64,000 bases of DNA from Chitinophagaceae bacterium. Lineage in GTDB: Bacteria > Bacteroidota > Bacteroidia > Chitinophagales > Chitinophagaceae. The stretch is taken from positions 4,641 through 68,640 of the forward strand of contig JAYURR010000174.1 of assembly GCA_043756605.1 (NCBI GenBank), in the 5' to 3' direction. The notes beneath the pieces are model-generated. The model saw only the letters and a list, made by a program, of their open reading frames with translations, ran no database searches and was not told the origin of the DNA. This document shows positions 3,988 through 61,287 of this stretch, piece by piece. Made by a program: the position numbers and the translations under genes. Each line of letters begins with the position of its first letter. Position 1 is the stretch's first letter.

Positions 3988-4139
3988 TTACTTTTTTGCT
4001 TCTCCAAAAAAGTAACAAAAAAAGAGCCCCGAAATCGATTACATCCCGATTTCGGGAAGGAGCCCTGATTGAGCTTTTGTACTACTGTAAACTCAAATTC
4101 GGTTCCCTGATTTTTAAGAGTTCAAAAACTGAACCTCTT
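3988..4139. repeat. Intergenic element of three consecutive hairpins
   Basis: ttacttttttg/caaaaaagtaa (3988-4015), cccgaaatcg/cgatttcggg (4028-4056), aagagttca/tgaacctctt (4116-4139). Confidence 0.6.
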
Positions 4140-4176
4140 TTCATAAAAAAACGGATTAGTATTTTATATTTTCAAG

Positions 4177-5145: not shown

Positions 5146-5156
5146 CGGTTAATCAT

Positions 5157-6592: not shown

Positions 6593-6700
6593 AATTGGCC
6601 CGCAGATTTCGCTGATTACGCAGATTCTAAAAAACTCTTTCTGCGACATCTGCGAAATCTGCGGGCCAATTCATCCGTGAAAATCTGTGCAATCCGTGGC
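6593..6700. repeat. Nonamer-arm extragenic palindrome plus an extra half-arm
   Basis: aattggcccgcagatttcgc (6593-6612) is the inverse of gcgaaatctgcgggccaatt (6652-6671); arms are made of cgcagattt-like 9-mers; followed by atccgtgaaaatctgtgcaatccgtggc. Confidence 0.8.
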
Positions 6701-9700: not shown

Positions 9701-12700
9701 CTAATATTTCAATAGCAGTAAAAGATTCGCCGGTTGGATTTACAAATTTGTAAGCAGCCGTTGCCGACAAAACAAGTGGAAAACGTATTACAGTTTTAGC
9801 AGGAATAGTTAAAGTGCCGTTAGATGGAATACCTGAAGACCAGTTTATATCTAAAGGCCTGTTTAAACTGTTATATAACATTACCACAGCCGTATCTTTA
9901 ATAGCGGTACTGCTTCCGGTTGTAGGTACCGGCGAGTAATAGGTATTTGAATACCAGGTGGCCGGAAATATAGGTACATCACGTGAGGAGTAATTATCAT
10001 TGCCGCCAAAATGCAGCTCTACACCAATTAATGCCGAAGCTGTAACTGTAGCACCGGATAATACACTGCCATTAACAAATAAAACCTCTCCTTCATTAAT
10101 AGTGGCCGTAGTTTCCAGTGTTCCGTTATTATCCTTATCAATTTCAACAACTGTATTATTCTGTGCTGCTCTTATAAAGAGTGATGTGTACCTGAAATCC
10201 TGGCTGGTAAAGTTCTGGCCTACCGGTATTGTAAATGATGTGCCATAATCTTTAACAGCAGATACATTGGTTTTCATACACTGTACCGCCATAATGGAGG
10301 GTTCTCCACAAACCTGTGTTACTGTTATCTGTCCGCTGGAAGTGATTTTATCTCTTCCATCGTAGAATATATTTGAAACAACCCTGGGATTGGTAGGCAT
10401 TGTATTGTCTAATACAATATTGCCACCGGCAGGGATAATATCAGAAGCATATCCCGGAACAATACCGTTGTAAGGGTTACCATCGCCCCAAACTTTGGTG
10501 GTAGCCTGTAATGGATCCAATGCATTTAGTTCATAACCATCCTCCCACTCATCCCATACTATCGTCATGCCGGGATATGGCATTTTCATACTGATAACCG
10601 TTCTTATATTATTACTTGGCGTAGCCGGACTTCCGGAACTATCCAATGCCATACGGGCTTCATTTTCTGAAAAAGGCAGATAAAACACGTGTGTCTTTGT
10701 TGCTTCCGAGCAGGGATCTATCAGCAAAGGATTTACTGTTAAGTAAATATAAGCTGTTGCACAGGCATTTGTACTATCACAAATCTGGTAAACCAGTGTA
10801 TCCTTACCTGCATAAGATCCATTGGGCAGATAAACCACTTTACCGTTTGATATAAAGCCGGTTCCGTTTCTGGGCTGTGTATTTATGGCAAGTGTAGAAA
10901 CTTTCATATTATTATTGGGATCATAATCATTACCCAAAACATCTACTATTATTGGTGCACCACCTGCCCCGGTGGCAGAATCGTTCAATGCTACCGGCGG
11001 ACAAACCGAGCATATATCAAAAGCCAGCAGATCAGAGTTTTTAATTAAATTTTCATATCCTTCCCTGGCTGTCGCCATCAGGTAATATAAATTGGTTGAG
11101 CCGGGGGTTGTCCATACATATTCATAAGTACGGGTGCAGGTAGTTGAATCTACACAGTTTACCGCATAAGTAGTACCCGGAGGATTAACTCTTAAATCCA
11201 TACCGGTAATATCGCTATAACCAAACGGTGTGGTAACTTTAGCCCTTACATAATAAGTGCTGTTTACCAATCCACTGGTTCTGATGGAGCCGGCCGGATA
11301 TGGTGCATTGTACACATTAAAACTAACAAAATCGATAAAGGTAGAAACCGGCAGCAGGCTTATCCTGGAGGGTTTGCTTGCGCTGTGGTATTCTATCTGG
11401 AACTGTACACCCGGTTGGGCAGAAGTAATATTTAATGCTACAGCCTGGCCCGATGGTACAGTTACGTCGGCACCAAGTGTACCAGTCCAGCTTAATATTT
11501 TTGTACTACTATTATATACGGGGTTGCTTAAACTTATAAAAGTTGTACTGCCGTATTTTAAACTGGCTGTTATAGCCGGATTTACCGGCATGGTACCACT
11601 GGTTACGTTAACATAAACCAGCATTTGTATGGTTTGTGCTTTAATTACCAGGTCGTTGCATAATGCCGGGCTTTGGGTAAATGTGATTGTATTTTGAGAT
11701 GCTGCTGGCTTTATGGGCACTGCTCCTAAAGCCCAGTCTGTTGATGCAGAAGTCCAGTTCATAATTGTAGTTGCTGCACCTGGCTCTGTACTTCCTGCAC
11801 CGGTAATTTCATTACCCGAACTCATATTCCATCTTTGTGTTTGCCCGGCAGTAACTGTAACTGGTTGATTTCTTATTGAAACAACATCATAAACCAGTTC
11901 CCCGCCTGCAGATGTTACATTTACGGACGGGTTTGTTGAACCTGCCTGTTGCGATGCAAATGTTCCTAGCGGAGTAGTTTGGTCTATACCGGTATAGGTT
12001 GTTACATTTACAACTGCACCCCTATCGGGAGCCGAGCTGAAATTAACAACCACATTAGCTGTGCCCGAAGGTGGATTAATCAATCGATAAAGCGCAATAC
12101 GGGCATTGCTATTTAAATTGTTTTCACCAACCAGTGTTAGTGCTGTTGCTCCATAAGTAACACTGGTAACGGTTCTGTTCTTTTGCGAAATACCCACCAG
12201 CATCAGCCTGTTGGCACCTGTACCGGTTGTATGTGCTACGGTTATTGGCATAGTGTTTCCGGTAACCGTATTTGACGCATCTATGGCAATGGGCGCCGTT
12301 GTTGATGAAATGGCATAAGAGGTAGCTGTAGTAGTAATATTAGTTGCTACCGGGTCTATCCTGTCGAGCAACATACCCGGATCGGATAAATACAGCGGCG
12401 TTTGCACCACCGATGGGTTGGCATTAACTATATGTGATGAAGTTGCAGGACCGTTACAACCAGTAGCCGAAGCCGTGATTGCCGAAGATCCAAACCAACT
12501 TGCCACCCAGGTAACCTGTCCGGTAGTTGTATTAATGGTATTACCGCCGGCTAAACTGGCAGCATCTAAACTATAAGTAATGCCTGTATTATTGGTAGCC
12601 GTAGCCGAATAAGTTATGGTTGCAGCACCCTGTGTACGCACCGATTGTATGCCCAACCCAAATACCGGAGTACCTACGGTTGGTGTAATAGTTACGGTAT

Positions 12701-15700
12701 GATTGGCTGTTCTGGGGCCATTGCAACCAGTTGCTGATGCAGTTATGATGGTACTGCCGGTCCAGTTTGCAACATAAGTCACTTCTCCGGTTGAACTGTT
12801 GATTGTATTTCCGGCAGTTATAGCAGCAGCATTCAAACTATAAGTTATACCTGTGGTATTTGTTGCACTTGCAGTATAGGTTACTGTAGCTGCTCCCTGA
12901 CAACGGGTAGATGTGGCACCCAAGGTAAATACCGGAGTACCTACAGTTGGGGTTATAGTTACCACATGTGCTGCAGAAGCAGGCCCATTACAACCTGCTG
13001 CAGAAGCTGTAATGATTGTTGTACCACTCCAGCCTGCAACATACACAACCACACCGGTTGTTGAATTGATGGTGTTACCACCTGTTATGCTGGCTGCATC
13101 AAGAGAATATGTAATAGATGTTGAATTGGAAGCTGTTGCTGTATAACCTACAAAAGCCCCTCCCTGGCAACGGGTGCTGGCAGCCCCCAATGTAAATACC
13201 GGTGTACCTACTGTTGGGGTTATGGTTACGGTATGGTTAGCTGTTGATGGGCCATTACAACCCGCTGCAGTTACTGTAATAATTGAAGTACCCGACCAGG
13301 CTGCATCATAAGTTACAGCACCGGTTGTTGCATTTATTGTATTACCGCCTGTAATACTGGCAGCATCCAGGCTATATGTTCTTGATGTACTGTTGCTTGC
13401 TGTGGCTGTATAGGTAACTGTACCTGCACCCTGGCAACGGGTGGTTGTAGCCCCCAATGTAAATACCGGAGTACCTACGGTTGGTGTTATGGTTACTGTA
13501 TGTATTGCGGTTCTTGGGCCGCTACAACCGGCGGCACTGGCAGTTATGATTGATGTACCACTCCAGCTTGCAACATAGGTTACCACACCCGTTGTTGCAT
13601 TTATACTATTACCGCCCGATATACTGGCGGCATTTAAAGTATAGGTAATTCCGGTTGTAGTTGTTGCTGTAGCATCATATTGTACTGTGCCGGCTCCCTG
13701 GCATCGGGTTGATGTTGCACCCAATGTAAATACCGGTGTACCAACCGTTGGAGTTATAGTTACTGTATGTGTTGCAGTTGATGGCCCGTTACAACCTGTG
13801 GCAGTAACTGTAACTATTGTGGTACCAACCCAGCCTGCAGCATACGTTACTGCACCGGTGGTTGTATTGATGGCATTACCACCAGTAATACTGGCAGCAT
13901 CCAGGCTGTAAGTAATACCTGTATTATTGGTGGCATTTGCAGTATAAGTAACTGTATTAGCATTCTGGCAACGGGTTGATGTAGCCCCCAAAGTAAATAC
14001 AGGTGTACCCACGGTTGGGGTAATGGTTACAGTATGTGTTGCTGTTTTGGGGCCATTACAACCTGTAGCAGTTACTGTAATGGTACTTGTTCCTGTCCAT
14101 GCAGCAACATAACTTACTTCTCCTGTTGATGAATTAATACTGTTTCCACCAGTAATACTGGAAGCATCGAGGCTATATGTTATGCCGGTGTTTGTTGTAG
14201 CTGTTGCTGTATAGGTAACATTTCCGGCTCCCTGGCAACGTGTAGATGTGGCACCAAGTGCAAATACCGGTGTACCAACTGATGCAGTTATGGTTACCAC
14301 ATGCGTTGCAGATGTTGGCCCGCTGCAACCTGCTGCTGTTGCTGTAATGGTAGTAGTACCACTCCAGCCTGCGGCATAAGTAACCGCACCGGTTGTTGTA
14401 TTGATTGAATTACCCGGGAATGCATCTGTTGTTGCATCCAGGGCATAGGTGATACCTTGATTGTTAGCTGCGGTTGCAGTATAAGTTACGGTAGCAGCTC
14501 CCTGGCAACGGGTAGATGTGGCACCCAGCGTAAATGAAGTTGCTCCCAGAATATCGTAGGTTGTAACCGTATGATTGGCCGATCTTGGCCCATTACAACC
14601 GGTTGCAGTTGCTGTAATTACTGAGGTTCCGGTCCATGCGGCAACAAAAGTAACATCACCGTTAATATTATTAATGGTATTACCACCAGCAAGGCTTGCG
14701 GCATCCAGGCTATAAACAATACCTGTGTTATTGGAAGCTGTAGCAGCATATGAAACAGTACCGGCACCAATACATCTTGATGAGGTTGACCCCAAACTAA
14801 ATACAGGGGTGCCAACACCTCCTGTAATAGTAACAATATGCGTTGCTGTTTTAGGGCCTCCACAACCGGTAGCAGTTGCAGTTATGGTAGAAGTACCAGT
14901 CCATAAAACCCAATAGGTTACTGCACCGGTAGCGGCGTTTATAGTATTGCCCCAGGTTAAACTGGTTGCATCCAGGCTGTAGGTTATTCCTGTACTATTG
15001 GAAGCTGTTGCTGTATAGGTTATAGTTCCTGCTCCAAAGCAACGGCTTGAAGTTGCTCCTAATGCAAATACGGGAGTGCCTATGGTTGCTGTAGTTGTAG
15101 CTGTATGATTAGCAGTTGTTGGCCCATTACAGCCCGAAGCTATTGCTGTAATGGTTGAACTGCCAACCCAGGCTACCGTATAATTTACCAATCCGTTTGC
15201 TGAATTGATTGTATTACCCGCAGCTAAACTGGCCGCATCTAAACTGAAAACAATGCCTGTATTATTTGATGCTGTAGCACTGTAATTAACATTTCCACCA
15301 ACCTGGCAACGTGTTGATGTGGCACCCAAGGCAAATACCGGAGTGCCTACTGCAGCTGTAATGGTTACTGTATGGTTTGATGTTCGGGGCCCGTTACAAC
15401 CTGCTGCACTGGCCGTAATGATGGTTGACCCTGTCCAGCCAGCTATATAGGTAACATCGCCGGTTGTAGCATTGATGGTATTACCACCGGTTAATGCTGC
15501 GGCATTCAATGTATAAGTTATGCTTGCTGCATAGGTTGCATTGGCAGTATAAGTAACCGTTGTAGCCCCCTGGCATCGGGTTGATGTTGCACCCAGCGTA
15601 AATACCGGATTTTGCACATCATCATTTGTTGTGGCGGTATGTGTGGCTGTTGATGGGCCGTTACAACCAGATGCTGTAGCTGTTATAATACTAACTCCAA

Positions 15701-18017: not shown

Positions 18018-18671
18018 ATGAATATTCAGGATTTCCCTATAACTATCGGTTTAATAATTGCCAACGTAATTTTTTCTTTAATTGGTTTTAGCAATGCCGC
18101 TTTTATTGATAAAACCATTATGTGGCCATACCGGGTTGCCCGGGAGAACCAGTACCACCGTTTTATAAGTTCGGGTTTTTTACATGCCGATTGGATGCAC
18201 CTTATCTTTAACATGTTTACCTTTTTCTTTTTTGGTATTGGTTTAGAGAGTTATTTAAAAGCATACGGCCTTGGTGGTAATATATCTTACCTGTTGTTAT
18301 ATTTTTTGGCATTAATTGTTTCTGATATTCCCAGTTACCTAAAGCATAAAGATGATAATAATTACCGGTCGCTGGGTGCTTCGGGTGCGGTAAGTGCCGT
18401 GGTTTTTGCAGCAATTGTGTTTAATCCGTGGAGCAGTATCCGGCTATACGGTTTTATAAAAATGTCGGCAGCATTATTTGCCGTATTGTACATTGTGTAT
18501 TGTGTTTACATGGGCAAAAAAAACAGCGATCATGTAAACCATGATGCTCATCTGTGGGGATCTTTATTTGGCCTGGCATTTATACTGGTTTTAATAGGCG
18601 TAGTAAGACCCGAATTGTTTACCCCCATTTTTGAACAGCTTAAGCACCCCAGTTTATTTGGCAGAGAATAA
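18018..18671 (+). CDS. Rhomboid family intramembrane serine protease
   Basis: FLHADWMHLIFNM, SLGASGAVS (catalytic Ser), NHDAHLWG (catalytic His). Confidence 0.93.
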   Translation: MNIQDFPITIGLIIANVIFSLIGFSNAAFIDKTIMWPYRVARENQYHRFISSGFLHADWMHLIFNMFTFFFFGIGLESYLKAYGLGGNISYLLLYFLALIVSDIPSYLKHKDDNNYRSLGASGAVSAVVFAAIVFNPWSSIRLYGFIKMSAALFAVLYIVYCVYMGKKNSDHVNHDAHLWGSLFGLAFILVLIGVVRPELFTPIFEQLKHPSLFGRE

Positions 18672-20081
18672 TGATAGCTGCAATATATTTTTAGCGCTGT
18701 CCGTTATTTTAAACCTATCATCAATACGCAGGCCAACCACCCAGATGATTTTTTTATCCATTTCAATAACCCATGTTTTTTCTTTTTGGGTGAGGGATAA
18801 TTTCTGATCAATTAAAAACCGACTTAGTTTTTTCTTCTTTTGCATGCCCAGCGGATAAAAATAATCGCCGGGTTTGCATTTGCGGAGGAGTAAGGGGAAT
18901 TTTATTTCAGATGCATTTACTTGGGCGATTTGGTTTGAGGTTTGTAGTTGGTGGTTGGTGGTTGGGAGCAGTTCAATATTAATTGAACCCTGCTGAAAAT
19001 CAACTTTTATATCATTTTTTTCTATAAAAATATTTTGCGCCTCTATAGTTTTATTTGGCGCAATAATAAGCCAGTTGCGGTTTTTAATGATGCGGTGTGT
19101 GGCTGATGAAATATATTTTCCGGTTTCGCTTTTTAATAAATCAACAACTTCATTTGTTTGATGTGCTGTAAAACCGTAGTCTTTTACAATCTCGTAAAGT
19201 ATTGTGTGCAATGCTTCGGTTTTCTGTAATTTTAAAACAGGGATATGTATTTCGTTGCCTTTTTGCTCCAGTAATTTTTTTTTGGCAAGATGTACAGATT
19301 GCTGGTACAGCGTTTCAATTTCCCGGAAACGTTCAATATTGTTCAGCAAATTATCCTGCACCTGCGGAAACACTTTTTGCAGATCGGGAATGAGTTGGTT
19401 GCGAAAATAATTGCGGGTGTATTTATCGGATGCGTTGGAAGAATCTTCCACAAAATTTAAATTATTTGCTTTTGCAAATGCAGCAATGTCTTCTTTTTTG
19501 GCAAAGAGTAAAGGCCGGATAATATTGCCTTGTTTTGGTAAGATACCATGCAGCCCATTAATGCCGGTGCCTTTAAAGAAATTCATTAAGAGGGTTTCGA
19601 TGTTATCGTTGGCGTGGTGTGCAGTGATAAGAAAATTGGCAATGGGCAATTGGCAATCCGGCTCTGAAGTTTCAATCTCTTTTGCATTTTGCATATTGCC
19701 TATTGCCAATTGCCCATCGCCCTTTGCATATTGCATATTGCCTGTTAACTCTGCAAACCAGTTGTAACGCAATTCCCTGGCGGCAACCTGTATGCTGAGT
19801 TTATTTTCGGTTGCAAATGTTTGTGTGTCGAATTTTTTAACCTGTACTTCAACATCATATTTTTTACCAAGTTCTTTTACAAACGCTTCATCACGTTCGC
19901 TTTCATCTCCACGCAATTGAAAGTTGCAGTGAGCAATGGTAAAATCGTAACCAGCCTGTTTGCAGAGTTCGCAAAGCACTACACTATCTACTCCCCCGCT
20001 TACGGCAAGCAACAGCTTATCTTTTGGTTGAAAAAGATTTTTGTGTTTGATGTATTGCTGAAATTTTTCTAAAAGATTCAT
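18654..20081 (-). CDS. tilS: tRNA(Ile)-lysidine synthetase carrying a repeat-derived insertion
   Basis: AVSGGVDS PP-loop, AARELRY, TAHHANDNIET, YTRNYFR, C-terminal KKKLSRFLID. Confidence 0.96.
   Translation of the reverse strand: MNLLEKFQQYIKHKNLFQPKDKLLLAVSGGVDSVVLCELCKQAGYDFTIAHCNFQLRGDESERDEAFVKELGKKYDVEVQVKKFDTQTFATENKLSIQVAARELRYNWFAELTGNMQYAKGDGQLAIGNMQNAKEIETSEPDCQLPIANFLITAHHANDNIETLLMNFFKGTGINGLHGILPKQGNIIRPLLFAKKEDIAAFAKANNLNFVEDSSNASDKYTRNYFRNQLIPDLQKVFPQVQDNLLNNIERFREIETLYQQSVHLAKKKLLEQKGNEIHIPVLKLQKTEALHTILYEIVKDYGFTAHQTNEVVDLLKSETGKYISSATHRIIKNRNWLIIAPNKTIEAQNIFIEKNDIKVDFQQGSINIELLPTTNHQLQTSNQIAQVNASEIKFPLLLRKCKPGDYFYPLGMQKKKKLSRFLIDQKLSLTQKEKTWVIEMDKKIIWVVGLRIDDRFKITDSAKNILQLSLFSAK
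18929..18965. repeat. Heptamer tract inside the 3' part of tilS
   Basis: Coding strand caaccac-caaccac-caactac-aaacctc-aaaccaa, encoding PTTNHQLQTSNQ. Confidence 0.6.
19634..19742. repeat. Heptamer-arm palindromic element in frame inside tilS
   Basis: ggcaatg/ggcaatt repeats (19634-19657) are inverted relative to attgcct-attgcca-attgccc (19695-19717); two ttgcat(a/t) tandem tracts are also present. Confidence 0.85.
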
Positions 20082-20106
20082 ACCCCTGTCCCCTAAAGGG
20101 GAACTT
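20082..20106. repeat. Solo C/G hairpin arm abutting the tilS start codon
   Basis: acccctgtcccctaaaggggaact; on the tilS strand it reads agttcccctttaggggacagggt-ATG, resembling the DUF559 element right arm. Confidence 0.65.
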
Positions 20107-20228
20107 AGTTAATTAGTGTAAAATAATCTGCCTGCAGTATTCCATTCATTCGCTTCAAAAAAAGTTCAATAGAGTTATACTGTACAAGAGTGCGACGCCA
20201 ATGAAGCTGATTAAAGATTAAAAGCCGG

Positions 20229-20262
20229 GAACCAAAAACTAAAAACCACAAACCTCAAACTA
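20229..20262. repeat. Heptamer arm starting at the TPR gene stop codon
   Basis: Minus strand TAG-tttgagg-tttgtgg-tttttag-tttttgg-tt. Confidence 0.6.
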
Positions 20263-20571
20263 TTCCTCCACATCCTCCAACGCTCCCTGCAGCTCCATCT
20301 TTGTATGATGATCATCTGCTTTTTGTGCCTCCTCTATACCCCGTTTGTATATCCTTATCGCTTTATCGTAATCGCCAACCCGCTCTAATAATTTGCCCAG
20401 GTGATAGTAAGAGCCAATATAAGTTGGCTCCCGCAGCAAAATTTCGTTAAACAGTTTGCGGGCCTGCTCATCATCGCCAATCTTAATGTACTCCAGTGCC
20501 AGCGCATGTTGCAGAAAACTATCCTTGCCCGATGTTTTCATGTACTCCAGTAATTTTTCTATCCTGCTCAT
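20260..20571 (-). CDS. Tetratricopeptide repeat protein
   Basis: DSFLQHALALEY, YIGSYYHLGKLLE TPR pattern, 103 aa. Confidence 0.88.
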   Translation of the reverse strand: MSRIEKLLEYMKTSGKDSFLQHALALEYIKIGDDEQARKLFNEILLREPTYIGSYYHLGKLLERVGDYDKAIRIYKRGIEEAQKADDHHTKMELQGALEDVEE

Positions 20572-20619
20572 TAAACAATATTTTTTTCTGATTTTTTATC
20601 AATTTATCTTTTCAACACT

Positions 20620-20627
20620 TATCTTTG
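20620..20627 (+). promoter_or_regulatory. Bacteroidota housekeeping promoter -7 element upstream of etfB
   Basis: tatctttg matches TAnnTTTG, 48 bp before the ATG at 20676. Confidence 0.55.
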
Positions 20628-20675
20628 CATTAGTTGCATAAACAACTTATTTCCCGATTTTTAAAATTTTACTAC

Positions 20676-21419
20676 ATGAAGATCTTAGTTTGTATCAGTA
20701 AAACCCCCGATACTACCGCAAAAATAGCCTTCGCCGATAACAATACGAAATTCGCTGCAGATGGCGTACAATGGATCATCAACCCGTACGATGAATGGTA
20801 TGCCCTGGTAAGAGCCATTGAGTTGAAGGAAGCCGATGCTGCAACAATAATACATTTGGTTACCGTTGGAGGTGCCGACAGCGACCCAATCATCCGTAAA
20901 GCATTGGCCCTTGGTGGCGATGAATCTTTCCGGGTAAATGCTGATAGTCATGATAGTTTTTACATTGCATCGCAAATTGCAGAAATTGCAAAAAAAGGCA
21001 GCTACGATTTAGTGTTTACCGGTAAAGAAACCATTGATTATAATGGATCTTCTATTGGCGGCATGGTGGCTGAACTGCTTGACCTGCCCTATGTTTCACT
21101 GGCAACTAAATTTACACTGGAAGGAACGGATGCCATTATTAACCGTGAAATTGAAGGTGGAGAAGAAACCAATAAAGTAGCATTACCGCTGGTGGTTAGC
21201 TGCCAAAAGGGAATGGCTGAACAACGAATACCTAATATGAAAGGCATTATGGGTGCCAGAAGCAAACCATTAACTGCTGTTGAGCCGGTTGCGGTTAATG
21301 CGCTGACAAGCGTTGCATCTTTTGAATTGCCACCTGCAAAGGCTGGAGTAAAATTAGTTTCAGCAGATAATCCTGAAGAGTTGGTAAGATTATTACATGA
21401 AGAAGCAAAAGCAATTTAA
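20676..21419 (+). CDS. etfB: Electron transfer flavoprotein beta subunit
   Basis: MKILVCISKTPDT, INPYDE, GKETIDY, RIPNMKGIMGA; start moved to ATG 20676. Confidence 0.95.
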   Translation: MKILVCISKTPDTTAKIAFADNNTKFAADGVQWIINPYDEWYALVRAIELKEADAATIIHLVTVGGADSDPIIRKALALGGDESFRVNADSHDSFYIASQIAEIAKKGSYDLVFTGKETIDYNGSSIGGMVAELLDLPYVSLATKFTLEGTDAIINREIEGGEETNKVALPLVVSCQKGMAEQRIPNMKGIMGARSKPLTAVEPVAVNALTSVASFELPPAKAGVKLVSADNPEELVRLLHEEAKAI

Positions 21420-21881
21420 TGGATAGTTGATAATGGTATAATGGATAATGTTTTAAATTTATAACATCACTCATTACCAAAACTATACATTATGAAAGAG
21501 AATATTTTAAAAGACAAGAGTTTCAATTTTGCGATAAGAATTGTAAATCTTTATAAATTTCTTAAGTAAGAACATGGTGAATATATTTTATCGCAGCAAT
21601 TAATAAGAAGCGGAACATCAATCGGGGCAATAGTTAGAGAAGCTGAACATGCAGAAAGCATTAAAGACTTTGTACATAAATTGAGTATTGGTTTAAAGGA
21701 AGCAAATGAATCGAAGTATTGGCTTGATCTGCTTTTTGCGACAGAGTTCATTACAAAAAAAATGTACGAATCGTTAAACAAGGATTGTGAGGAGCTTTTA
21801 AAATTGCTTATTGCAAGCGTAAAAACGAGTAAGCTTAAAATTAAATAAATTATCAATTATCCATTATTAAATTATCCATTG
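21417..21881. mobile_element. Heptamer-inverted-repeat cassette carrying a four-helix-bundle gene
   Basis: Left arm taatggatagttgataatggtataatggataatg (21417-21450) includes the etfB stop; right arm aattatcaattatccattattaaattatccattg (21848-21881) ends 2 bp before the etfA ATG. Mobility is inferred. Confidence 0.65.
21492..21848 (+). pseudogene. Four-helix-bundle protein (TIGR02436/23S rRNA IVP family) with an in-frame stop
   Basis: Manual translation MKENILKDKSFNFAIRIVNLYKFLK*EHGEYILSQQLIRSGTSIGAIVREAEHAESIKDFVHKLSIGLKEANESKYWLDLL...; TAA at 21567-21569. Confidence 0.88.
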
Positions 21882-21883
21882 TC

Positions 21884-22843
21884 ATGGTTTTAATATTTTT
21901 AGATCTATCAGAAGGCCACATTAAAAAATCATCTTTTGAAGCAGCAAGTTACGGTGCAAAAGTTGCCGAACTTTTAGGTACCACTGCCGATGCCATTGTA
22001 TTGGGCAATGTTGCAGATGATTTAACAACTTTGGGCAACTACGGCATTAAAAAAGTGCATACCGTAAAAAATGATGCACTTGATCATGTAGATGCACAGG
22101 TGTTTACAAAAATAATTGCCGATGCTGCTAAAGCCATTGATGCTAAAGTAATCATCTTCTCCAATAACTTTAATGGCAAAGCCATTGCGCCACGTTTAAG
22201 TGTAAGGCTTAAGGCTGGCCTGGTTTCTGGTGCTGTTGCCCTACCGGATTTGAGCAACGGATTTACGGTTAAGAAAAACGTTTTCAGCGGTAAGGCTTTC
22301 GCCAATATCACGGTGGCAACTGATATTAAGATCATTGCATTAAATCCAAATTCATATACCGTTGTACCAACAACAGCCACTGCAGAAGTTGCCGAATTTA
22401 CAGCAACAGTTGATGCTGCAAAAGTACAGGTAACTGCAACCGATAAAGTAGTTGGCGAAGTTCCATTGAGCGAAGCGGAAATTGTAGTAAGCGGCGGACG
22501 TGGTTTAAAAGGCCCGGAAAACTGGGCATTGGTTACCGACCTTGCAAAATTATTGGGTGCAGCTACGGCCTGCAGCCGCCCGGTTGCTGATAGCGACTGG
22601 AGGCCGCATCACGAACATGTAGGACAAACAGGCCTTGCCATTGCACCAAACTTATACATTGCCATTGGTATTTCTGGCGCCATACAACATCTTGCCGGTG
22701 TAAACCGCAGTAAAGTAATTGTGGTAATTAATAAAGACCCCGAAGCTCCGTTTTTTAAAGCGGCAGATTATGGTATTGTAGGCGATGCTTTTGAAGTGAT
22801 GCCGAAGATTATTGAAGCGGTTAAAAAATTGAAGCAGGCGTAA
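21884..22843 (+). CDS. etfA: Electron transfer flavoprotein alpha subunit
   Basis: VVSGGRG, ACSRPVAD, HVGQTG, YIAIGISGAIQHLAG, AINKD-like VINKD. Confidence 0.96.
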   Translation: MVLIFLDLSEGHIKKSSFEAASYGAKVAELLGTTADAIVLGNVADDLTTLGNYGIKKVHTVKNDALDHVDAQVFTKIIADAAKAIDAKVIIFSNNFNGKAIAPRLSVRLKAGLVSGAVALPDLSNGFTVKKNVFSGKAFANITVATDIKIIALNPNSYTVVPTTATAEVAEFTATVDAAKVQVTATDKVVGEVPLSEAEIVVSGGRGLKGPENWALVTDLAKLLGAATACSRPVADSDWRPHHEHVGQTGLAIAPNLYIAIGISGAIQHLAGVNRSKVIVVINKDPEAPFFKAADYGIVGDAFEVMPKIIEAVKKLKQA

Positions 22844-22862
22844 ACTGATAAAATCTATTCAT

Positions 22863-22893
22863 AAAAAAACCTCCATTCTCTGGAGGTTTTTTT
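22863..22893. terminator. Bidirectional intrinsic terminator
   Basis: aaaaaaacctcca-ttctc-tggaggttttttt between convergent genes. Confidence 0.8.
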
Positions 22894-22916
22894 ATGCCGG
22901 ATATTTTTAATACTTT

Positions 22917-24422
22917 TTAAATTGTATTGGGTGTAAATATTTTTACAACCCCATCATTTTCGCTGCTTACAATCAATAAACTTTTTTTAGTAGGACTGTC
23001 TTTTGCTGGTATAAACAAAACGCCCTCCGGTGCATCGCCACATTTTATCATTTGCAAAAATACCGGTGCCGCAGGGTTACTTATATCATACATGGCCACT
23101 GCATCTACCCTTTCCATACCCACAAATGCAACCATTTTATTGCCCACTTTTCCAATGCAAACACCTTCCGGCTCTACCGATTTATCGTCGCTACGGGTAT
23201 CATCATACACACTCAAAGCAAGGGCTTTTTTATCAAGTTCATTTTTACTATCAAAAACCTGTACGCCTGTATTGCCGTTCCATACACTAAAAGAGCGGGC
23301 ACCAAATGAATACAGGGCATCAAAATCGCCATCGCCATCAGTATCGCCCATGGTATTGGTAACATTCAGGCGGCCCATTTGTGCATCTAATTTTAAAGTG
23401 GCCGCATTGGGAAATAGAGTTAAATCAAGCGATAAAGATTTAACCCTTTTTGCTTCTGCTAAAGCCGTGTACTCTCTTGCATCGCCTTCGTTGGCAGTAA
23501 ACAGATAAGGTATGCCATTGAACTCGTACAACGAAATTGCATCAGGCATGTACATGCCTTTAACCGGCCATTTTGCAGGCGTGCCCACGGCTCCATCCAG
23601 ATCACTTACATCAATAGCATTTTCAGCAGTGTTATAATCTTTAAATCCTAAAGGAAAAATATTGCTTATAGCTTTAGAGGTAAGATCAATTTTTGCAATG
23701 CCGTTGTTTTCCTGCAGGGTAACCCAGGCAGTTTTTGAGTCGGATGAAATGGTTATATACTCAGGCTCAATATCTTTTACAAAATTATTGCCAATACCAA
23801 AAACCCTTAATCCGCCTGCTTTTAAAGCAGCCTGCTGTGATGTAAAAGCAGCAAAATCAATGGTAGTTACCGTATAATTATTATTTACCTCAATAATAGA
23901 AACTGTACCTGCCGGATCGTTGGTATAATCATTACTTGGTTCACCTTCGTTTGCAGTTAATAAATAATTGCCATCATTGCTAAACCTGATCATATCGGGC
24001 AAAGCACCAACCGTAACAACTTTTACTTCGCTGTAAGTATCGGTTTTAAAAACAACTACTTTGCCATTATCCTGCTTATTTAAACCCTCAATAGCTGCAG
24101 CCAGTTTGCCATTGCTTACATCCAAACTGTTAACTGCACCTGCATAGGCAGATAAAGCAATACTATAAACCATTGCCGGAGCAGCCGGATTTTTTATATC
24201 CAACACATCAATTTTATTAGTTGCACTGTTGTTTACCACAAACAAGCGTTGTGTTAAGGGATCGTAAGCAGATATTTCTGCAGCGCCAACACCACCAATG
24301 CCAATACTTCCAATTTCTTTAAAAGTTGAAGGATCTTCGTTAACAAAAAATTCGGGTGTGTCATTTTTTTTACACGACGCCATAATTACAGTGCATACCA
24401 TTAACAGGTTCAATAATTTCAT
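22917..24422 (-). CDS. Choice-of-anchor I family beta-propeller lipoprotein (alkaline-phosphatase-associated)
   Basis: Lipobox MKLLNLLMVCTVIMASC; AAEISAYD, GALPDM, TANEGEP, EPEYI, QENNG, FGARSFS, RSDDKSVEPEG. Confidence 0.82.
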   Translation of the reverse strand: MKLLNLLMVCTVIMASCKKNDTPEFFVNEDPSTFKEIGSIGIGGVGAAEISAYDPLTQRLFVVNNSATNKIDVLDIKNPAAPAMVYSIALSAYAGAVNSLDVSNGKLAAAIEGLNKQDNGKVVVFKTDTYSEVKVVTVGALPDMIRFSNDGNYLLTANEGEPSNDYTNDPAGTVSIIEVNNNYTVTTIDFAAFTSQQAALKAGGLRVFGIGNNFVKDIEPEYITISSDSKTAWVTLQENNGIAKIDLTSKAISNIFPLGFKDYNTAENAIDVSDLDGAVGTPAKWPVKGMYMPDAISLYEFNGIPYLFTANEGDAREYTALAEAKRVKSLSLDLTLFPNAATLKLDAQMGRLNVTNTMGDTDGDGDFDALYSFGARSFSVWNGNTGVQVFDSKNELDKKALALSVYDDTRSDDKSVEPEGVCIGKVGNKMVAFVGMERVDAVAMYDISNPAAPVFLQMIKCGDAPEGVLFIPAKDSPTKKSLLIVSSENDGVVKIFTPNTI

Positions 24423-24626
24423 ATTCAGTAGTTTTATGGCTGTAATTTTCAAAGATTGATGTTATCAATTTGTAACCGGAAGGTTAAGAAAATATTATTT
24501 GCATTCAATTGGTCTTCAGTTGCCGATTTTATGATGATTTTTCGATTGAAAAAAGTAAGCGGTAGAGAAATCATTATTTTTTATATTTGCTGTTTGCTAA
24601 ACGCATGATGACAACCCGGAAAGGAT

Positions 24627-25208
24627 ATGAAAAAAATAGAATTGGAAATAGTGGCTTTATCGCACAGCATTACCCAAACCCATTCGTATGCAGTTGTGCT
24701 GGGCGAGTTAAACGGATTACGCAGGCTGCCGATAGTTATTGGCGGCTTTGAGGCGCAGGCTATTGCTGTAGCTTTGGAACGTATGAGCCCAAGCAGGCCG
24801 CTTACCCACGACCTGATGAAGAATTTTATGATGGCCTTTAATGTAGAACTGCACGAAGTGGTTATAAATGATCTGCAGGAAGGAATTTTTTACAGCAAAC
24901 TGGTTTGCAGCTCAGCAAACGATACGGTTGAAATTGATTCCCGTACATCGGATGCTTTGGCTTTGGCTGTACGTTTTGGCTGCCCTATTTATACTTATGA
25001 TAATATTTTAGAACAGGCCGGAATACTGATGGAAGATGATGGCAAACCAAAATCACCCACCACAGTTACAACCGAAACAGTTGGAGGCGATAATTTAAAA
25101 TCATTATCGCTGGAAGAACTGGAAGGTTTGTTGACCGAAGTGCTGGATCATGAAGATTATATAAGGGCCATTGCTATACGGGATGAGATAAAAAGCAGGA
25201 AGAAGTAA
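24627..25208 (+). CDS. Bifunctional nuclease family protein (DUF151) with C-terminal UVR domain
   Basis: RRLPIVIGGFEAQAIA, RPLTHDL, DSRTSDALALA, EDYIRAIAIRDEI. Confidence 0.9.
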   Translation: MKKIELEIVALSHSITQTHSYAVVLGELNGLRRLPIVIGGFEAQAIAVALERMSPSRPLTHDLMKNFMMAFNVELHEVVINDLQEGIFYSKLVCSSANDTVEIDSRTSDALALAVRFGCPIYTYDNILEQAGILMEDDGKPKSPTTVTTETVGGDNLKSLSLEELEGLLTEVLDHEDYIRAIAIRDEIKSRKK

Positions 25209-25341
25209 TGGATAATTGTTTAATGGATAATGGATAATTTTTCAAATTCGTTGCAGTTTTTCAATAGCAAACTTTAAGATACTTAGCATACATTTCCATT
25301 CTAAAACATTATCCATTATAAATTATCTCATTATCCATTAA
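25206..25341. repeat. Empty TAATGGA-heptamer inverted-repeat element filling the stop-to-start gap
   Basis: taatggataattgtttaatggataatggataatt (25206-25239) ... cattatccattataaattatctcattatccattaa (25307-25341); ispE ATG at 25343. Confidence 0.82.
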
Positions 25342-25342
25342 C

Positions 25343-26164
25343 ATGCTCCGGTTTCCCAATTGCAAAATAAATCTCGGCTTACATATTCTTGATAAAAGAG
25401 AAGATGGGTTTCACAACCTGGAGACTGTTTTTTATCCGGTTGCATTTAAAGATGCACTGGAATTACTTCCAAATACAACTAATACAACTGAAATTGAATT
25501 TACAGGCACAGGCCTGGCTGTTGATGGCAACACAGATGATAATCTTTGCGTAAAAGCATATCATTTAATAAAGAAAGATTTTACACAACTACCTGCAATA
25601 AAAATTCATTTGCATAAAGCCATACCCATGGGAGCCGGACTGGGCGGCGGTTCTGCCGATGCTTCTTTTATGCTGCAAATGTTGAATGATAAATTCAAAT
25701 TAAACCTCTCAACTTCTAAACTCCTAAACTATTCTTTACTGCTCGGCAGCGATTGCCCTTTTTTCATCATCAACAAACCCTGCTTTGCAACAGGCCGTGG
25801 AGAATTGCTGGAAGAAATAAAAGTTGATTTATCTGCTTACAAAATTGTTTTAGTTAATCCCGGCATTCATGTAAATACCCGTTGGGCATTTTCAAATATT
25901 AGTCCTTCCCTGCCCAAAAAATCAGTTAAAGAAATTGTGCTGCAAACTATTGAAACCTGGAAGGCTGAATTAAAAAATGATTTTGAAACGGCAGTTTTTG
26001 CTGCTCATCCGCAGGTAAAAGAAATTAAAGAAACGCTGTATCAACAGGGAGCAATTTATGCTGCTATGAGTGGAAGCGGCAGTACGGTGTTTGGAATTTT
26101 TGAATCAAACGCAGGCGCAGTCTCATTAAAACACAGCAACTATTTTATTAAAACAATAAATTAG
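25343..26164 (+). CDS. ispE: 4-diphosphocytidyl-2-C-methyl-D-erythritol kinase
   Basis: FPNCKINLGL, KAIPMGAGLGGGSADA, GSDCPFF, MSGSGSTVFG. Confidence 0.96.
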   Translation: MLRFPNCKINLGLHILDKREDGFHNLETVFYPVAFKDALELLPNTTNTTEIEFTGTGLAVDGNTDDNLCVKAYHLIKKDFTQLPAIKIHLHKAIPMGAGLGGGSADASFMLQMLNDKFKLNLSTSKLLNYSLLLGSDCPFFIINKPCFATGRGELLEEIKVDLSAYKIVLVNPGIHVNTRWAFSNISPSLPKKSVKEIVLQTIETWKAELKNDFETAVFAAHPQVKEIKETLYQQGAIYAAMSGSGSTVFGIFESNAGAVSLKHSNYFIKTIN

Positions 26165-46220: not shown

Positions 46221-47003
46221 ATGCATGTTCCAACAATGGCAGAAATGATGGCGAAGGGTGAAAGCCCCGAAATTTTATTTTGGGTAGGCTGCGCCGGAAG
46301 TTTTGACCAGCGGGCACAAAAAATAACCAAAGCATTTGTAACCATTTTGGATAAGGTTGGTATCAACTACGCCATCTTGGGTAAAGAAGAAATGTGTACC
46401 GGCGATCCGGCCCGCCGTGCCGGCAACGAATTTATGTTTCAGATGATGGCTTACCAGAATATTCAGATTTTGAATGGTTATGGTATTAAGAAAATTGTAA
46501 CGGCCTGTCCGCATTGTTTTAATACATTGGGTAATGAATATCCTGAATTGGGCGGCACTTACGAAGTAATTCATCATGCAACTTTTTTACAGCAATTAAT
46601 TGACGAAGGCAAAATAAAAATGACCGAAGGCGGTACTTTTAAAGGCAAAAAAATTACTTACCACGATAGTTGTTATTTGGGCCGTGCCAATAATATTTAC
46701 GAAGCACCACGCAAAGTGCTGGAAGCCTTGGATGTTTCTTTAGTTGAGATGAAACGCTGCCGCAGCAACGGTTTGTGCTGTGGTGCCGGCGGTGCACAAA
46801 TGTTTAAAGAGGAAGAAAAAGGTGAAATCCGCATTAATATAGATCGCAGTAACGAAGCCATTGCAACCGGTGCCAGCGTTATTGCAGCGGCATGCCCGTT
46901 TTGTAATACTATGATGACAGATGGTGTAAAAAACAGTAATAAGGAAGATGAGGTGCAGGTGTTGGATATTGCGGAGTTGGTTGCTGCATCAATGGCAAAC
47001 TAA
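46221..47003 (+). CDS. (Fe-S)-binding CCG-domain protein (GlpC/HdrB-like)
   Basis: WVGCAG, CTGDP, ACPHC, YHDSCYLGR, LCCGAGG, ACPFC. Confidence 0.9.
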   Translation: MHVPTMAEMMAKGESPEILFWVGCAGSFDQRAQKITKAFVTILDKVGINYAILGKEEMCTGDPARRAGNEFMFQMMAYQNIQILNGYGIKKIVTACPHCFNTLGNEYPELGGTYEVIHHATFLQQLIDEGKIKMTEGGTFKGKKITYHDSCYLGRANNIYEAPRKVLEALDVSLVEMKRCRSNGLCCGAGGAQMFKEEEKGEIRINIDRSNEAIATGASVIAAACPFCNTMMTDGVKNSNKEDEVQVLDIAELVAASMAN

Positions 47004-47034
47004 TGGATAATTTAGTAATGGATAATTGATAATG
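47001..47034. repeat. Solo TAATGGA-heptamer arm beginning with the upstream stop codon
   Basis: taatggataatttagtaatggataattgataatg is 31/34 identical to the reverse complement of 21848-21881. Confidence 0.85.
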
Positions 47035-47091
47035 TTTTATGTTTCAGACACTTCATGTTTGATTGCAGATACGTCATCTCAAATACAAAAA

Positions 47092-58079: not shown

Positions 58080-59588
58080 ATGTTGAATGTAGCTACCAAT
58101 AAAAAACATGATGAAGCAAGGCAGGGAGAAGCATTTGCCCTGTTTGCCAACGATACAAACCCATACAAAAAATACTTTTACATTGAAAGTTATGGCTGCG
58201 CCATGAATTTTGCCGATAGCGAAGTGGTGGCTTCTATATTAATGGATAATGGTTTTGGTGCCACCAATAATTTTAAAGAAGCCGATCTTATTTTTATAAA
58301 CACCTGTTCTATCCGTGAAAAGGCAGAAACCACTGTACGCAAACGTTTAACAGAATTTCGCCAGATAAAAAAACAAAAACCAGGCATGCTGGTGGGTGTG
58401 CTGGGCTGTATGGCCGAGCGATTGAAAGCACAGTTTTTAGAAGAAGAAAAATTAGTTGATTTAGTAATTGGCCCCGATGCATACCGCAGTTTACCTGCAC
58501 TAATTGAAGAAGCAGAAACCGGCCAGAAAGCAGTAAATGTTTTATTAAGCCGTGATGAAACCTATGCAGATATTGCACCCATTCGCCTTAACAGCAATGG
58601 TGTAAATGCGTTTGTAAGCATCATGCGTGGCTGCAATAATATGTGTTCGTTTTGTGTGGTGCCATTTACCCGTGGCCGGGAACGAAGCCGTGATGCCGCA
58701 TCTATCATCAACGAATGTAAAACCTTATTTGAGCAGGGATACAGAGAAGTAACTTTGCTGGGGCAGAATGTGGATAGTTACCATTACACAGCCCCCCCGG
58801 CCATCCAAGGGGGGAGTTTGGAACACCCTGCAAATTCAAATAGCACTGTAAATTCGCAGGGTGCTTTTTCTCCCCCCTTGGGGGGCGGGGGGGCTGCTGT
58901 TACTTTTGCCATACTTTTAGAGCAGGTCGCACTAATCTCTCCCCTCCTCCGTGTACGCTTCTCCACTTCGCATCCAAAAGATATTACCGATGATGTGTTG
59001 CACACAATTGTGAAATACGAAAACATCTGCAATTATATTCACCTGCCGGTACAAAGTGGCAGCACACGTGTGTTGCAAATGATGAACCGCACCTACAGCC
59101 GTGAGTGGTACATTGCCAAAGTAAACCGCATACGGGAGTTGATACCGCATTGTGGCATTTCAACTGATATGATAACCGGTTTTTGTACCGAAACAGAGGA
59201 AGATCACCAGCAATCTTTAAGCCTGATGGAATACTGCAAGTACGATCTGGCTTATATGTACTTTTACAGCGAACGGCCGGGAACCCTTGCTGCCCGTAGG
59301 TTTAAAGATGATGTACCGCTTGATGTTAAAAAACGCAGACTACAGGAAATGGTTGACCTCTATCGTGGCCACTCATTACTTGCCATGCAAAAGGAAGTGG
59401 GCAAAACCCGTAAAGTATTAATTGAAGGTCCATCTAAAAAAAGTGAAAACGATTTGTATGGCAGAACCGATCAGAATAAAGTAGTGGTATTTGAAAAAGG
59501 AAATTTAAAGGTGGGGGAATATGTAGAAGTACAAATTACATCTTGCACAGCAGGAACATTGATAGGCAAAACCCCCTCCGCCCCCTGA
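58080..59588 (+). CDS. miaB: tRNA-2-methylthio-N6-dimethylallyladenosine synthase carrying an internal insertion
   Basis: [29 protein letters not shown] radical-SAM motif, C-terminal TRAM domain. Confidence 0.97.
58789..58896. repeat. 108-bp palindromic element in frame inside miaB
   Basis: cagcccccccggccatccaaggggggag ... ctccccccttggggggcgggggggctg, with an inner caccctgc/gcagggtg pair. Confidence 0.88.
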
Positions 59589-61284: not shown

Positions 61285-61287
61285 AGT

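What the first reader, a model, noticed from the sequence alone, without database searches (positions are those of the whole stretch)
21417..21881. Four-helix-bundle cassette wedged exactly between the etfB stop and etfA start
Seen: the left arm begins with the etfB TAA (TAA-TGGATA...), the right arm ends 2 bp before the etfA ATG, and the cargo gene has one premature TAA (21567). Established: etfB-etfA are usually adjacent; this protein family includes the rRNA intervening-sequence protein and is related to the Avd accessory protein of diversity-generating retroelements. Inference: a transposase-free mobile unit (heptamer arms plus helper gene) that lands without disrupting operons and is now decaying.
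Basis: partly seen in the sequence, partly recalled or inferred. Interest (0 to 1): 0.68.

Follow-up and report, generated by a model that had tools for sequence, protein, structure and literature searches.

The report
Hairpin-flanked four-helix gene in etfBA operon
A small gene of unknown function, bracketed by mirror-image runs of a 7-base repeat, fills the whole gap between two operon genes; it is built like the inserts long known from ribosomal RNA genes, is old and inherited here rather than freshly landed, and suggests that this gene family and bacterial 7-base repeats belong together.

Summary
A 464-nt insert fills the whole etfB-etfA spacer. Its parts are a left arm that starts with the etfB TAA, a TIGR02436/PF05635 four-helix-bundle gene with an in-frame TAA at codon 26, and a right arm ending 0-3 nt before the etfA ATG. 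The arms are inverted arrays of about 5 heptamers and pair into a stem of about 31 bp.

Arms plus gene are a genuine unit. About 150 homologues from at least 10 phyla carry cognate inverted arms with a 7-nt period, and some have cargo-less derivatives nearby. However, this copy is not a recent arrival and the cassette is not decaying as a class:
- Orthologous cassettes occupy the same etfB|etfA site in about 50 Chitinophagaceae species.
- Their divergence tracks Etf divergence (Mantel r=0.63).
- Synonymous divergence is about that of the flanking genes, and dN/dS is 0.04.
- The stop codon is a single SNP; a sister population carries AAA.

Closest known is the 23S rRNA intervening sequence (S23p ORF, heptamers, RNase III-cut stem). 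The inferred mechanism is a stem in the operon transcript that neutralises the insert, by RNase III cutting and/or by bringing stop and start together. What the protein does is unknown. New variant of a known kind; interest 0.6.

The parts
20620..20627 (+). Candidate Bacteroidota -7 promoter box (TATCTTTG) about 50 nt upstream of etfB
   Evidence: TAnnTTTG match on the + strand. No such box lies on the + strand inside the cassette. This is a consensus match only.
20676..21419 (+). etfB (electron transfer flavoprotein beta subunit). Its TAA stop (21417-21419) is also the first triplet of the left arm.
   Evidence: PF01012, E=2.7e-28; sequence; 80 orthologues.
21417..21450 (+). Left arm: about 4.7 tandem units of the heptamer TAATGGA/ATGGATA, with stop triplets in all three frames on the sense strand
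   Evidence: Tandem Repeats Finder gives period 7 and 4.7 copies. Inverted-repeat pairs I1-I3. Stop positions per frame.
21451..21491 (+). A/T-rich leader between the left arm and the start of the four-helix gene
   Evidence: Sequence. No Rfam match in 20000-26000.
21492..21848 (+). Four-helix-bundle gene (TIGR02436 / PF05635, the S23p/IVP family), 118 codons, interrupted by TAA at 21567-21569 (codon 26; Lys/AAA in relatives and in a sister population)
   Evidence: Translation; HMM hits; PDB 2RLD at E=1e-42 and 2GSC by profile; T/A polymorphism at 21567.
21849..21883 (+). Right arm: about 5.1 units of AATTATC/ATTATCC, the reverse complement of the left arm. It has one stop triplet on the sense strand and stops in all three frames on the antisense strand.
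   Evidence: Word depth is 240-400x against 20x in the source metagenomes, so this arm is a multi-copy sequence.
21884..22843 (+). etfA (electron transfer flavoprotein alpha subunit)
   Evidence: PF01012 and PF00766.
22860..22896 (.). Hairpin followed by a T-run after etfA; the only convincing terminator-like site in 20400-23000
   Evidence: The scan scores this palindrome-plus-T-run on the - strand, with 16 pairs. On the + strand the same hairpin is followed by TTTTTTTAT.
25206..25342 (+). Second element with the same arms but no gene. It runs from the TAA of the upstream gene to 0 nt before the ispE ATG.
   Evidence: Sequence. The fold closes the arms, z=-3.3. It is orthologous in about 19 of 80 relatives, none of which has a four-helix gene there.
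47001..47035 (+). Solo left-arm array (TAATGGATAAT...) starting with the TAA stop of the upstream gene; no right arm

Best explanation
The segment is an IVS-type hairpin cassette. A TIGR02436/PF05635 four-helix-bundle gene (the S23p/IVP family, Avd-like) lies in the loop of a long hairpin. The hairpin's arms are inverted arrays of about 5 heptamers, and together they fill the whole etfB-etfA spacer.

Shown:
- It is an old resident of this exact site in Chitinophagaceae.
- It has been inherited with etfB and etfA, and lost many times.
- Its protein is under purifying selection as strong as that on EtfA and EtfB.
- In this strain it carries a very recent nonsense SNP.

Inferred:
- The cassette has no recognisable promoter or terminator of its own and is co-transcribed with etfBA.
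- In the transcript the arms pair into an A/U-rich stem of about 30 bp. The base of that stem places the etfB stop next to the etfA start.
- This stem is what makes the insert harmless. As in the 23S rRNA intervening sequences of the same family, it is probably cut by RNase III. Before or without cutting, it lets translation of etfA remain coupled to termination at etfB.
- The four-helix protein is made from the loop. It most likely binds the heptamer arrays, as RNA or DNA, of its own cassette and of the cargo-less hairpins of the same unit elsewhere in the genome.

The biochemical activity of the protein is unknown.
For: Anatomy and pairing.

Same site in relatives:
- 51 homologues lie between etfB and etfA, always co-oriented.
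- Empty spacers of 19-40 nt, and spacers that keep only right-arm remnants, are interleaved with them on the Etf tree.

Vertical descent:
- Four-helix versus EtfBA protein distance gives Mantel r=0.63; 0 of 2000 permutations reach it.
- No near-identical four-helix genes occur in divergent Etf backgrounds.
- dS of the four-helix gene is about 0.82 times dS of the etf genes in the same pairs.

Functional protein:
- dN/dS is 0.040, against 0.056 for etfB and 0.057 for etfA.
- 40 of 50 copies are intact, and the 10 broken ones have different lesions.
- Twelve residues are invariant across phyla.

Recent stop: T against A at 21567 between samples.

Geometry, in 58 cassettes:
- Pairing starts a median 3.5 nt from the first base of the upstream stop.
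- Pairing ends a median 0 nt before the downstream ATG.
- Flanking genes are co-directional (13:1 upstream, 10:2 downstream).

Arms co-vary:
- The cognate right arm is the best partner in 14 of 24 loci with unrelated heptamers.
- It is also the best partner (rank 1 of 78) for the etf cassettes L094 and L106, whose arms use variant units, and for the non-etf locus L130.

Co-transcription: one promoter-like box lies before etfB, none lies inside the cassette, and one terminator follows etfA. RNA contigs cover a homologous cassette in rumen metatranscriptomes.

Precedent: the Coxiella 23S IVS has an S23p ORF, tandem heptamers and a 28-bp terminal stem shown to be cut by RNase III (PMC4990558).
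Against: - There is no RNA evidence for this organism; no RNA runs were found. Neither cleavage nor coupling has been observed.
- Arm mismatches show no significant excess of sense-strand G.U over A.C (90 against 69, p=0.11). Selection on RNA pairing, as opposed to DNA-level symmetry, is therefore not demonstrated.
- The arms are only about 80% complementary and A/T-rich.
- RNase III cutting would separate the etfB and etfA messages, which sits uneasily with the coupling idea. The two sub-mechanisms are alternatives.
- Two gene pairs (L115/L116 and L126/L128) have four-helix dS well below that of the flanks. Some exchange between relatives is not excluded.
- Binding of the protein to the heptamers is pure inference.
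Confidence: 0.55

Rival explanations
1. The four-helix protein and the heptamer arrays form a REP/RAYT-like pair that acts on DNA. The protein, pentameric in its solved homologues, binds arrays of about five heptamers. It thereby generates, homogenises or mobilises the arrays, and the gene flanked by inverted arrays is the 'master' copy of a genome-wide repeat family. Under this view the RNA stem is a by-product.
For: - The 7-nt period is universal whatever the unit sequence: all 33 strong arms in a second sample from at least 10 phyla.
- Arms in the window have about 4.6-5.1 units. PDB homologues 2RLD and 2GSC each have 5 chains, and 2GSC is described as a homopentamer in PMC4990558.
- The same unit recurs at other junctions of the same genome: three sites in the window and 12 other loci.
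- Cargo-less derivatives keep the leader and trailer.
- Arms at two sites of one genome are somewhat more alike than arms between genomes (9 of 120 and 32 of 720 permutations).
- The site-2 hairpin is commoner in genomes that have the gene at the etf site (6 of 8 against 3 of 11, p=0.07).
- There is no sense-strand G.U bias.
Against: - The protein has no catalytic motif and no nuclease or recombinase domain; it hits only TIGR02436/PF05635.
- There is no sign of movement at either window site over the whole Chitinophagaceae sample.
- Genomes that lack the etf cassette still keep the hairpin (L001/L165).
- The within-genome statistics are weak and confounded by phylogeny.
- Arm lengths range from 3 to 15 units.
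Confidence: 0.2
2. The cassette is a host-domesticated regulatory module specific to the etf operon. The hairpin and its protein tune the EtfB:EtfA ratio or the stability of the message.
For: The cassette has been retained for a long time at one site under strong purifying selection. The geometry from stop to start is exact.
Against: - The cassette has been lost repeatedly. It has left empty 19-40 nt spacers or been replaced by unrelated hairpins in most relatives.
- The same cassette type sits between unrelated gene pairs in other phyla, between cmr3 and cmr2 in Pleurocapsa (PMC3936711), and inside rRNA (PMC4990558).
- One strain carries a null allele.
Confidence: 0.12
3. One reading: a transposase-free mobile unit that landed recently between etfB and etfA and is now decaying.
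For: The cassette has a unit structure. The arms are multi-copy. Cargo-less copies exist. There is a premature stop. Presence at the site is patchy among relatives.
Against: - Orthologues occupy the same site in about 50 species with co-divergence, and dS is about that of the flanks.
- dN/dS is 0.04.
- The stop is one SNP, absent from a sister population.
- No target-site duplication is evident.
Confidence: 0.08

Closest known systems
23S rRNA intervening sequences carrying an S23p/IVP ORF (Leptospira, Coxiella, Brucella, Xanthomonas-type; Ralph & McClelland 1993; PMC4990558)
   Same: The ORF belongs to the same protein family (PF05635). It is enclosed by terminal inverted repeats that form a stem of about 28-31 bp. 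Tandem heptamers with variable copy number lie at the 5' side. The element is about 430-470 nt long and is embedded in a host transcript without a promoter of its own.
   Different: This one sits in an mRNA, between two cistrons, not in helix 25 or 45 of rRNA. Its arms span exactly from stop codon to start codon. Its ORF is under strong purifying selection, whereas the Coxiella ORF is reported to be eroding and untranslated. RNase III cutting has not been shown here.
Heptanucleotide repeat arrays of bacteria (cyanobacterial STRR, recalled from my own knowledge: Mazel 1990; TAACTGA direct repeats of Beggiatoaceae, cyanobacteria and Bacteroidetes, PMC4679880)
   Same: These are tandem 7-nt units in intergenic positions. 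They often overlap the upstream stop and point towards the downstream start, with stop triplets in all three frames in the forward orientation.
   Different: Those arrays were described as direct repeats with no partner gene. Here the arrays come as inverted pairs around a four-helix gene or its deletion derivatives. No paper found in the searches links the two.
REP/BIME elements with RAYT genes (REPtrons), and MITE-like hairpins processed in operon transcripts such as Neisseria Correia/NEMIS (own knowledge)
   Same: A single gene is flanked by inverted copies of a repeat that is also dispersed in gene-less form at operon junctions. Hairpins form in polycistronic RNA, and RNase III processing is known for NEMIS.
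   Different: The gene encodes a small four-helix bundle, not an HUH transposase. The repeats are tandem heptamers rather than a 20-40 nt palindrome. No target-site duplication is evident.
Avd, the accessory protein of diversity-generating retroelements (PDB 4DWL)
   Same: The fold and family are related (CDD cd16375; PF05635 is the commonest neighbour of DGR reverse transcriptases, PMC10053308). Both are basic pentameric four-helix bundles.
   Different: There is no reverse transcriptase and no template or variable repeat next to this gene; etfB and etfA are its neighbours. Sequence and profile searches here reach 2RLD and 2GSC but not 4DWL.

Membership tests
TIGR02436 / PF05635 (four helix bundle protein; 23S rRNA-intervening sequence protein) | HMM score above the curated cutoff over the full length | tested here: met
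   TIGR02436 scores 99.5 bits (cutoff 24), profile positions 2-108 of 109. PF05635 scores 91.5 bits (cutoff 33.8). PDB 2RLD matches at E=1e-42.
TIGR02436 / PF05635 (four helix bundle protein; 23S rRNA-intervening sequence protein) | Conserved motif GxxRxxxSxxxNxxE (Lin 2006; quoted in PMC3936711) | tested here: inconclusive
   R39, S43 and E50 are present. G is replaced by an invariant Q36, and N by I47 in the etf clade; N is present in several distant homologues.
TIGR02436 / PF05635 (four helix bundle protein; 23S rRNA-intervening sequence protein) | Intact open reading frame | tested here: not met
   TAA at codon 26 in this strain. The sister population (A at 21567) is intact, as are 40 of 50 orthologues.
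rRNA intervening sequence (IVS) element with S23p ORF | S23p/IVP ORF enclosed by terminal inverted repeats that form a long stem | tested here: met
   31 pairs, -29 kcal/mol, between the two spacers. The minimum-energy fold closes the arms.
rRNA intervening sequence (IVS) element with S23p ORF | Tandem heptamer repeats at the 5' side | tested here: met
   Period 7, 4.7 copies. For comparison, Coxiella has GACAGAT x2-3.
rRNA intervening sequence (IVS) element with S23p ORF | Located inside a 23S (or 16S) rRNA helix | tested here: not met
   It lies between the etfB stop and the etfA start.
rRNA intervening sequence (IVS) element with S23p ORF | Excised from the transcript by RNase III | not testable with these tools
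   No RNA runs exist for this organism. The metatranscriptome data for a homologue are assembled contigs only.
MITE / transposon-like mobile element | Target-site duplication and a transposase, or a source of one | tested here: not met
   The flanks are ...ATT|TAA and GTC|ATG, with no duplication. The only ORF is the four-helix gene.
MITE / transposon-like mobile element | Insertion polymorphism among close relatives due to gain | tested here: inconclusive
   Presence is patchy. However, co-divergence and matching dS point to old presence with losses. Deletion derivatives at neighbouring junctions in other phyla show past copying.
REP/RAYT-type system | Gene flanked by inverted copies of a repeat that is also dispersed in the same genome | tested here: met
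   Three sites in the window share the unit. The arm has 12-20 fold excess depth. Twelve other loci have same-unit arrays nearby.
REP/RAYT-type system | Gene encodes an HUH (Y1) transposase | tested here: not met
   Only TIGR02436/PF05635 hits.
DGR accessory protein Avd | Adjacent reverse transcriptase with template and variable repeats | tested here: not met
   The neighbours are etfB and etfA. The fold relation to Avd is taken from the literature only.

The most novel reading that the evidence does not exclude
TIGR02436/PF05635 proteins may be the long-missing trans-acting partners of bacterial heptanucleotide repeat arrays (the STRR/TAACTGA type). In this reading a pentameric four-helix ring reads about five 7-nt units. 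Each gene, sitting between inverted arrays of its own unit, maintains or spreads a genome-wide family of operon-junction hairpins and rRNA intervening sequences. It might do so through the excised RNA, by analogy with Avd-assisted reverse transcription.
Probability: 0.2. Interest if true: 0.85.

Novelty: new variant of a known kind. Interest (0 to 1): 0.6.

Why it matters
The S23p/IVP four-helix family is very common. The family has had no function since 1993. Bacterial heptamer repeat arrays have been equally unexplained since 1990.

This locus and its relatives show four things. The gene and inverted 7-nt arrays are one unit across phyla. The unit lives in operon junctions as well as in rRNA. 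Its arms run exactly from stop codon to start codon with a fixed polarity. The protein is kept by selection for very long periods.

That turns two old puzzles into concrete experiments: does the protein bind the heptamers, and is the stem cut or used for translational coupling? It also matters for annotation. Four-helix genes found 'associated' with CRISPR or other operons may simply be such inserts.

Tried and rejected
- Rfam: no family matches the cassette or the other spacer motifs.
- PADLOC and PHROGs: no meaningful hit; PDC-M53A at E=0.002 is partial.
I relied on PDB sequence and profile hits instead.
- RNA evidence: no RNA runs exist for the window. Rumen metatranscriptome contigs for homologue L152 show that the gene region is transcribed and that the arms are hugely abundant. 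Contig 'joints' across the cassette rest on arm matches of 21-35 nt in a mixed community and cannot be read as excision.
- The G.U against A.C mismatch asymmetry test for selection on sense RNA was not significant.
- The within-genome concerted-evolution test on arms at two sites was only suggestive.
- Target-site duplication: none found.
- A promoter of its own for the gene: there is no + strand TAnnTTTG in the cassette. The sigma-70 scan is not applicable to Bacteroidota.
- Recent horizontal homing was rejected because no near-identical four-helix genes occur in divergent Etf backgrounds.

Full report
**What is there.** The window comes from a Chitinophagaceae bacterium (Ferruginibacter-like). 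The best EtfB match is 95%, to a metagenome-assembled genome.

- etfB ends with TAA at 21417-21419, and etfA starts at 21884.
- The 464 nt between them hold a left arm, TAATGGATAGTTGATAATGGTATAATGGATAATG (21417-21450), whose first triplet is the etfB stop.
- A 41-nt A/T-rich leader follows.
- Next is a 118-codon ORF (21492-21848) with an in-frame TAA at 21567.
- Last is a right arm, ATTATCAATTATCCATTATTAAATTATCCATTGTC (21849-21883), that abuts the etfA ATG.

The ORF belongs to TIGR02436/PF05635. It matches PDB 2RLD at E=1e-42 and, by profile, 2GSC.

Both arms are tandem heptamers of 4.7 and 5.1 units, and they are reverse complements of each other. The minimum-energy fold of the region closes them into one long stem.

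**The stop codon.** Two runs of a sediment metagenome hold the window sequence exactly, at 20x depth, with T at 21567. Two other samples of the same study hold a contig that differs in 515 nt only by A at that position, which restores Lys as in all relatives. The nonsense codon is therefore real, but it is a very young strain polymorphism. In the same data the right arm has 12-20 times the depth of its surroundings, so the arm sequence is multi-copy.

**Relatives at the etfB-etfA junction.**
- Among 78 of the closest EtfB-bearing species-representative genomes for which both genes could be placed, the spacer is 19-40 nt in many.
- It is 440-590 nt and holds the same gene and arms in seven.
- In the rest it holds other things: gene-less hairpins built from other 7-8 nt units, G/C hairpins, or right-arm remnants just before the ATG.
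- Searching from the four-helix protein gave the key result. Nearly every homologue at or above about 68% identity (51 loci; Ferruginibacter, Lacibacter and other Chitinophagaceae) sits in this same junction, co-oriented.
- On an EtfBA tree, carriers and non-carriers are interleaved.

**Old or new?**
- Four-helix protein distances rise with EtfBA distances. Mantel r=0.63, and 0 of 2000 permutations reach it.
- The smallest four-helix distance among pairs with Etf distance 0.2-0.3 is 0.12, so there is no sign of recent transfer.
- In pairs with unsaturated dS, the four-helix gene has a median dS of 0.65, against 0.92 for etfB and 1.09 for etfA (median ratio to the flanks 0.82).
- dN/dS is 0.040, against 0.056 for etfB and 0.057 for etfA.
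- Forty of 50 copies are intact. The ten broken ones carry different lesions.

The cassette is thus an old, vertically inherited resident that has been lost many times, and its protein is functional. Two pairs have an unusually low four-helix dS, so occasional exchange between relatives cannot be excluded.

**Is arms plus gene a general unit?** Yes.
- Distant homologues (45-62% identity) in Bacteroidales, Chlorobi-like bacteria, Campylobacterota, Acidobacteria, Clostridia and others lie in other gene neighbourhoods. They are flanked by inverted tandem arrays of quite different units, such as GTGAATA, GAAGAAT, GGTGAGC and GAATGCA.
- The cognate right arm is the best partner of its left arm in 14 of 24 such loci. 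It is rank 1 of 78 for L094, L106 (etf cassettes whose arms use variant units) and L130 (a non-etf locus).
- A second sample of 72 loci from at least 10 phyla, including cyanobacteria, Gammaproteobacteria, a spirochaete and Oscillospiraceae, gave a best period of 7 nt. This held in all 33 strong arms and in nearly all the others.
- Pairing begins a median 3.5 nt from the first base of the upstream stop. It ends a median 0 nt before the downstream ATG, and flanking genes are co-directional.
- The arms are polar. The upstream arm carries more stop triplets than the downstream arm in 51 of 51 etf loci and in 19 of 20 informative other loci (p=4e-5). In the second sample the split was 25 to 7 (p=0.002).
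- With a period of 7, one stop per unit closes all three frames. The window's left arm on the sense strand, and its right arm on the antisense strand, both do so.

**Evidence that the family has copied itself.**
- In the window the same unit occurs at two more junctions. One is a gene-less hairpin running from a TAA stop to the ispE ATG (25206-25342). The other is a solo left arm at 47001-47035.
- The ispE hairpin is itself orthologous in about 19 of 80 relatives. It is never accompanied by a gene there. Other relatives have a spacer of 0-25 nt or hairpins built from other units.
- In Nitratifractor (L143), a gene-less copy lies 1.2 kb from the cassette. It keeps the arms, the leader and the trailer, which is the hallmark of a deletion derivative. 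L152 shows the same.
- Tests for within-genome homogenisation of the arms are only suggestive.

**How it probably works.**
- A Bacteroidota-type -7 box precedes etfB, none lies on the + strand inside the cassette, and the only terminator-like site follows etfA. The three genes are therefore predicted to form one transcript.
- The closest described system is the 23S rRNA intervening sequence. In Coxiella, a 428-nt element with an S23p ORF, tandem heptamers of variable number and a 28-bp terminal stem is excised by RNase III (PMC4990558).
- By analogy, I infer that the arms pair in the etf transcript and neutralise the insert. They could do this by RNase III cutting, or by placing the etfB stop beside the etfA start so that translation of etfA stays coupled. 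Bacteroidota lack Shine-Dalgarno-led initiation (own knowledge).
- None of this could be tested. No RNA runs exist for this organism. A mismatch-asymmetry test for selection on sense RNA was not significant (90 against 69).
- Purifying selection says the protein does something. Solved homologues are pentamers and are related to Avd. The constant 7-nt period suggests that the protein reads the arrays, but that is an inference.

**What is known and what is new.**
- Known: the protein family, its presence in rRNA IVSs and next to DGR reverse transcriptases, and heptamer arrays with three-frame stops in intergenic regions (PMC4679880).
- Also known: a 23S_rRNA_IVP gene lodged between cmr3 and cmr2 has been noted, and was read as a functional association (PMC3936711).
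- Not found in any paper in five literature searches:
  - a link between the gene and inverted heptamer arrays outside rRNA;
  - the stop-to-start geometry;
  - the stop polarity of the arms;
  - long vertical retention in one operon.

I therefore rate this a new variant of a known kind.

**Verdict.** For this copy, 'mobile now' and 'decaying' are not supported.

Noticed in passing
window 19630-19745 (inside tilS, 18654..20081, - strand): A hairpin built of GGCAAT-type heptamers lies in frame inside tilS and is translated as TGNMQYAKGDGQLAIGNMQNAKEIETSEPDCQLPIANF. In 60 or more relatives the same spot, between LRYxWF and TAHHxxDN, is hypervariable: inserts of roughly 5 to 55 residues, many reading like translated repeats.
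   Followed up: partly
window 61275-61385: Another stop-abutting hairpin lies directly after a gene's TAA. Its arms are (CAATGGG)n, about 7 units, facing (TGCTTAT/TTGCTTA)n.
   Followed up: no
window 6597-6668: A small hairpin whose arms are tandem 9-mers (CGCAGATTA / TCTGCGAAA).
   Followed up: no
window 58790-58890 (inside the 502-aa MiaB-like ORF, 58080..59588): A G/C-rich hairpin (CCCCCCGG...GGGGGGCGGGGGGG) appears to be translated in frame as [39 protein letters not shown]-rich hairpins also fill the etf spacers of L001, L003, L018 and others.
   Followed up: no
L013, L014, L029, L041, L068, L069 (etfB-etfA spacers); L201, L218, L236, L240 (spacers upstream of ispE): A conserved motif, CATCGTTGTGTCACTCMCTTGTAC or CGTTGCGACGCTCCGTT, recurs in unrelated junctions of different genomes. 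It has no Rfam match at gathering threshold.
   Followed up: partly
L214, L224, L230, L237 (upstream of ispE): An insert of about 1.0-1.1 kb lies at the same junction that holds the gene-less hairpin in the window. It appears to carry an ORF, read by eye from the printed sequence; no ORF listing or domain search was run.
   Followed up: no
window 12660-14535: A 267-nt unit is repeated 7 times in tandem at 70% identity. It is probably a repetitive surface-protein gene.
   Followed up: no
L152:1423-1469 and 1846-1892 in rumen metatranscriptomes X21-X24: The heptamer arms of a Prevotellaceae cassette reach word depths of 57-5700, against about 5-60 for the neighbouring genes. Such arms are very abundant in rumen RNA.
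   Followed up: partly
L115 vs L116; L126 vs L128: In these pairs the synonymous divergence of the four-helix gene (0.12; 0.49) is far below that of the flanking etf genes (0.56-0.66; 1.24-1.31). Possible causes are local exchange between relatives or constraint on synonymous sites.
   Followed up: no
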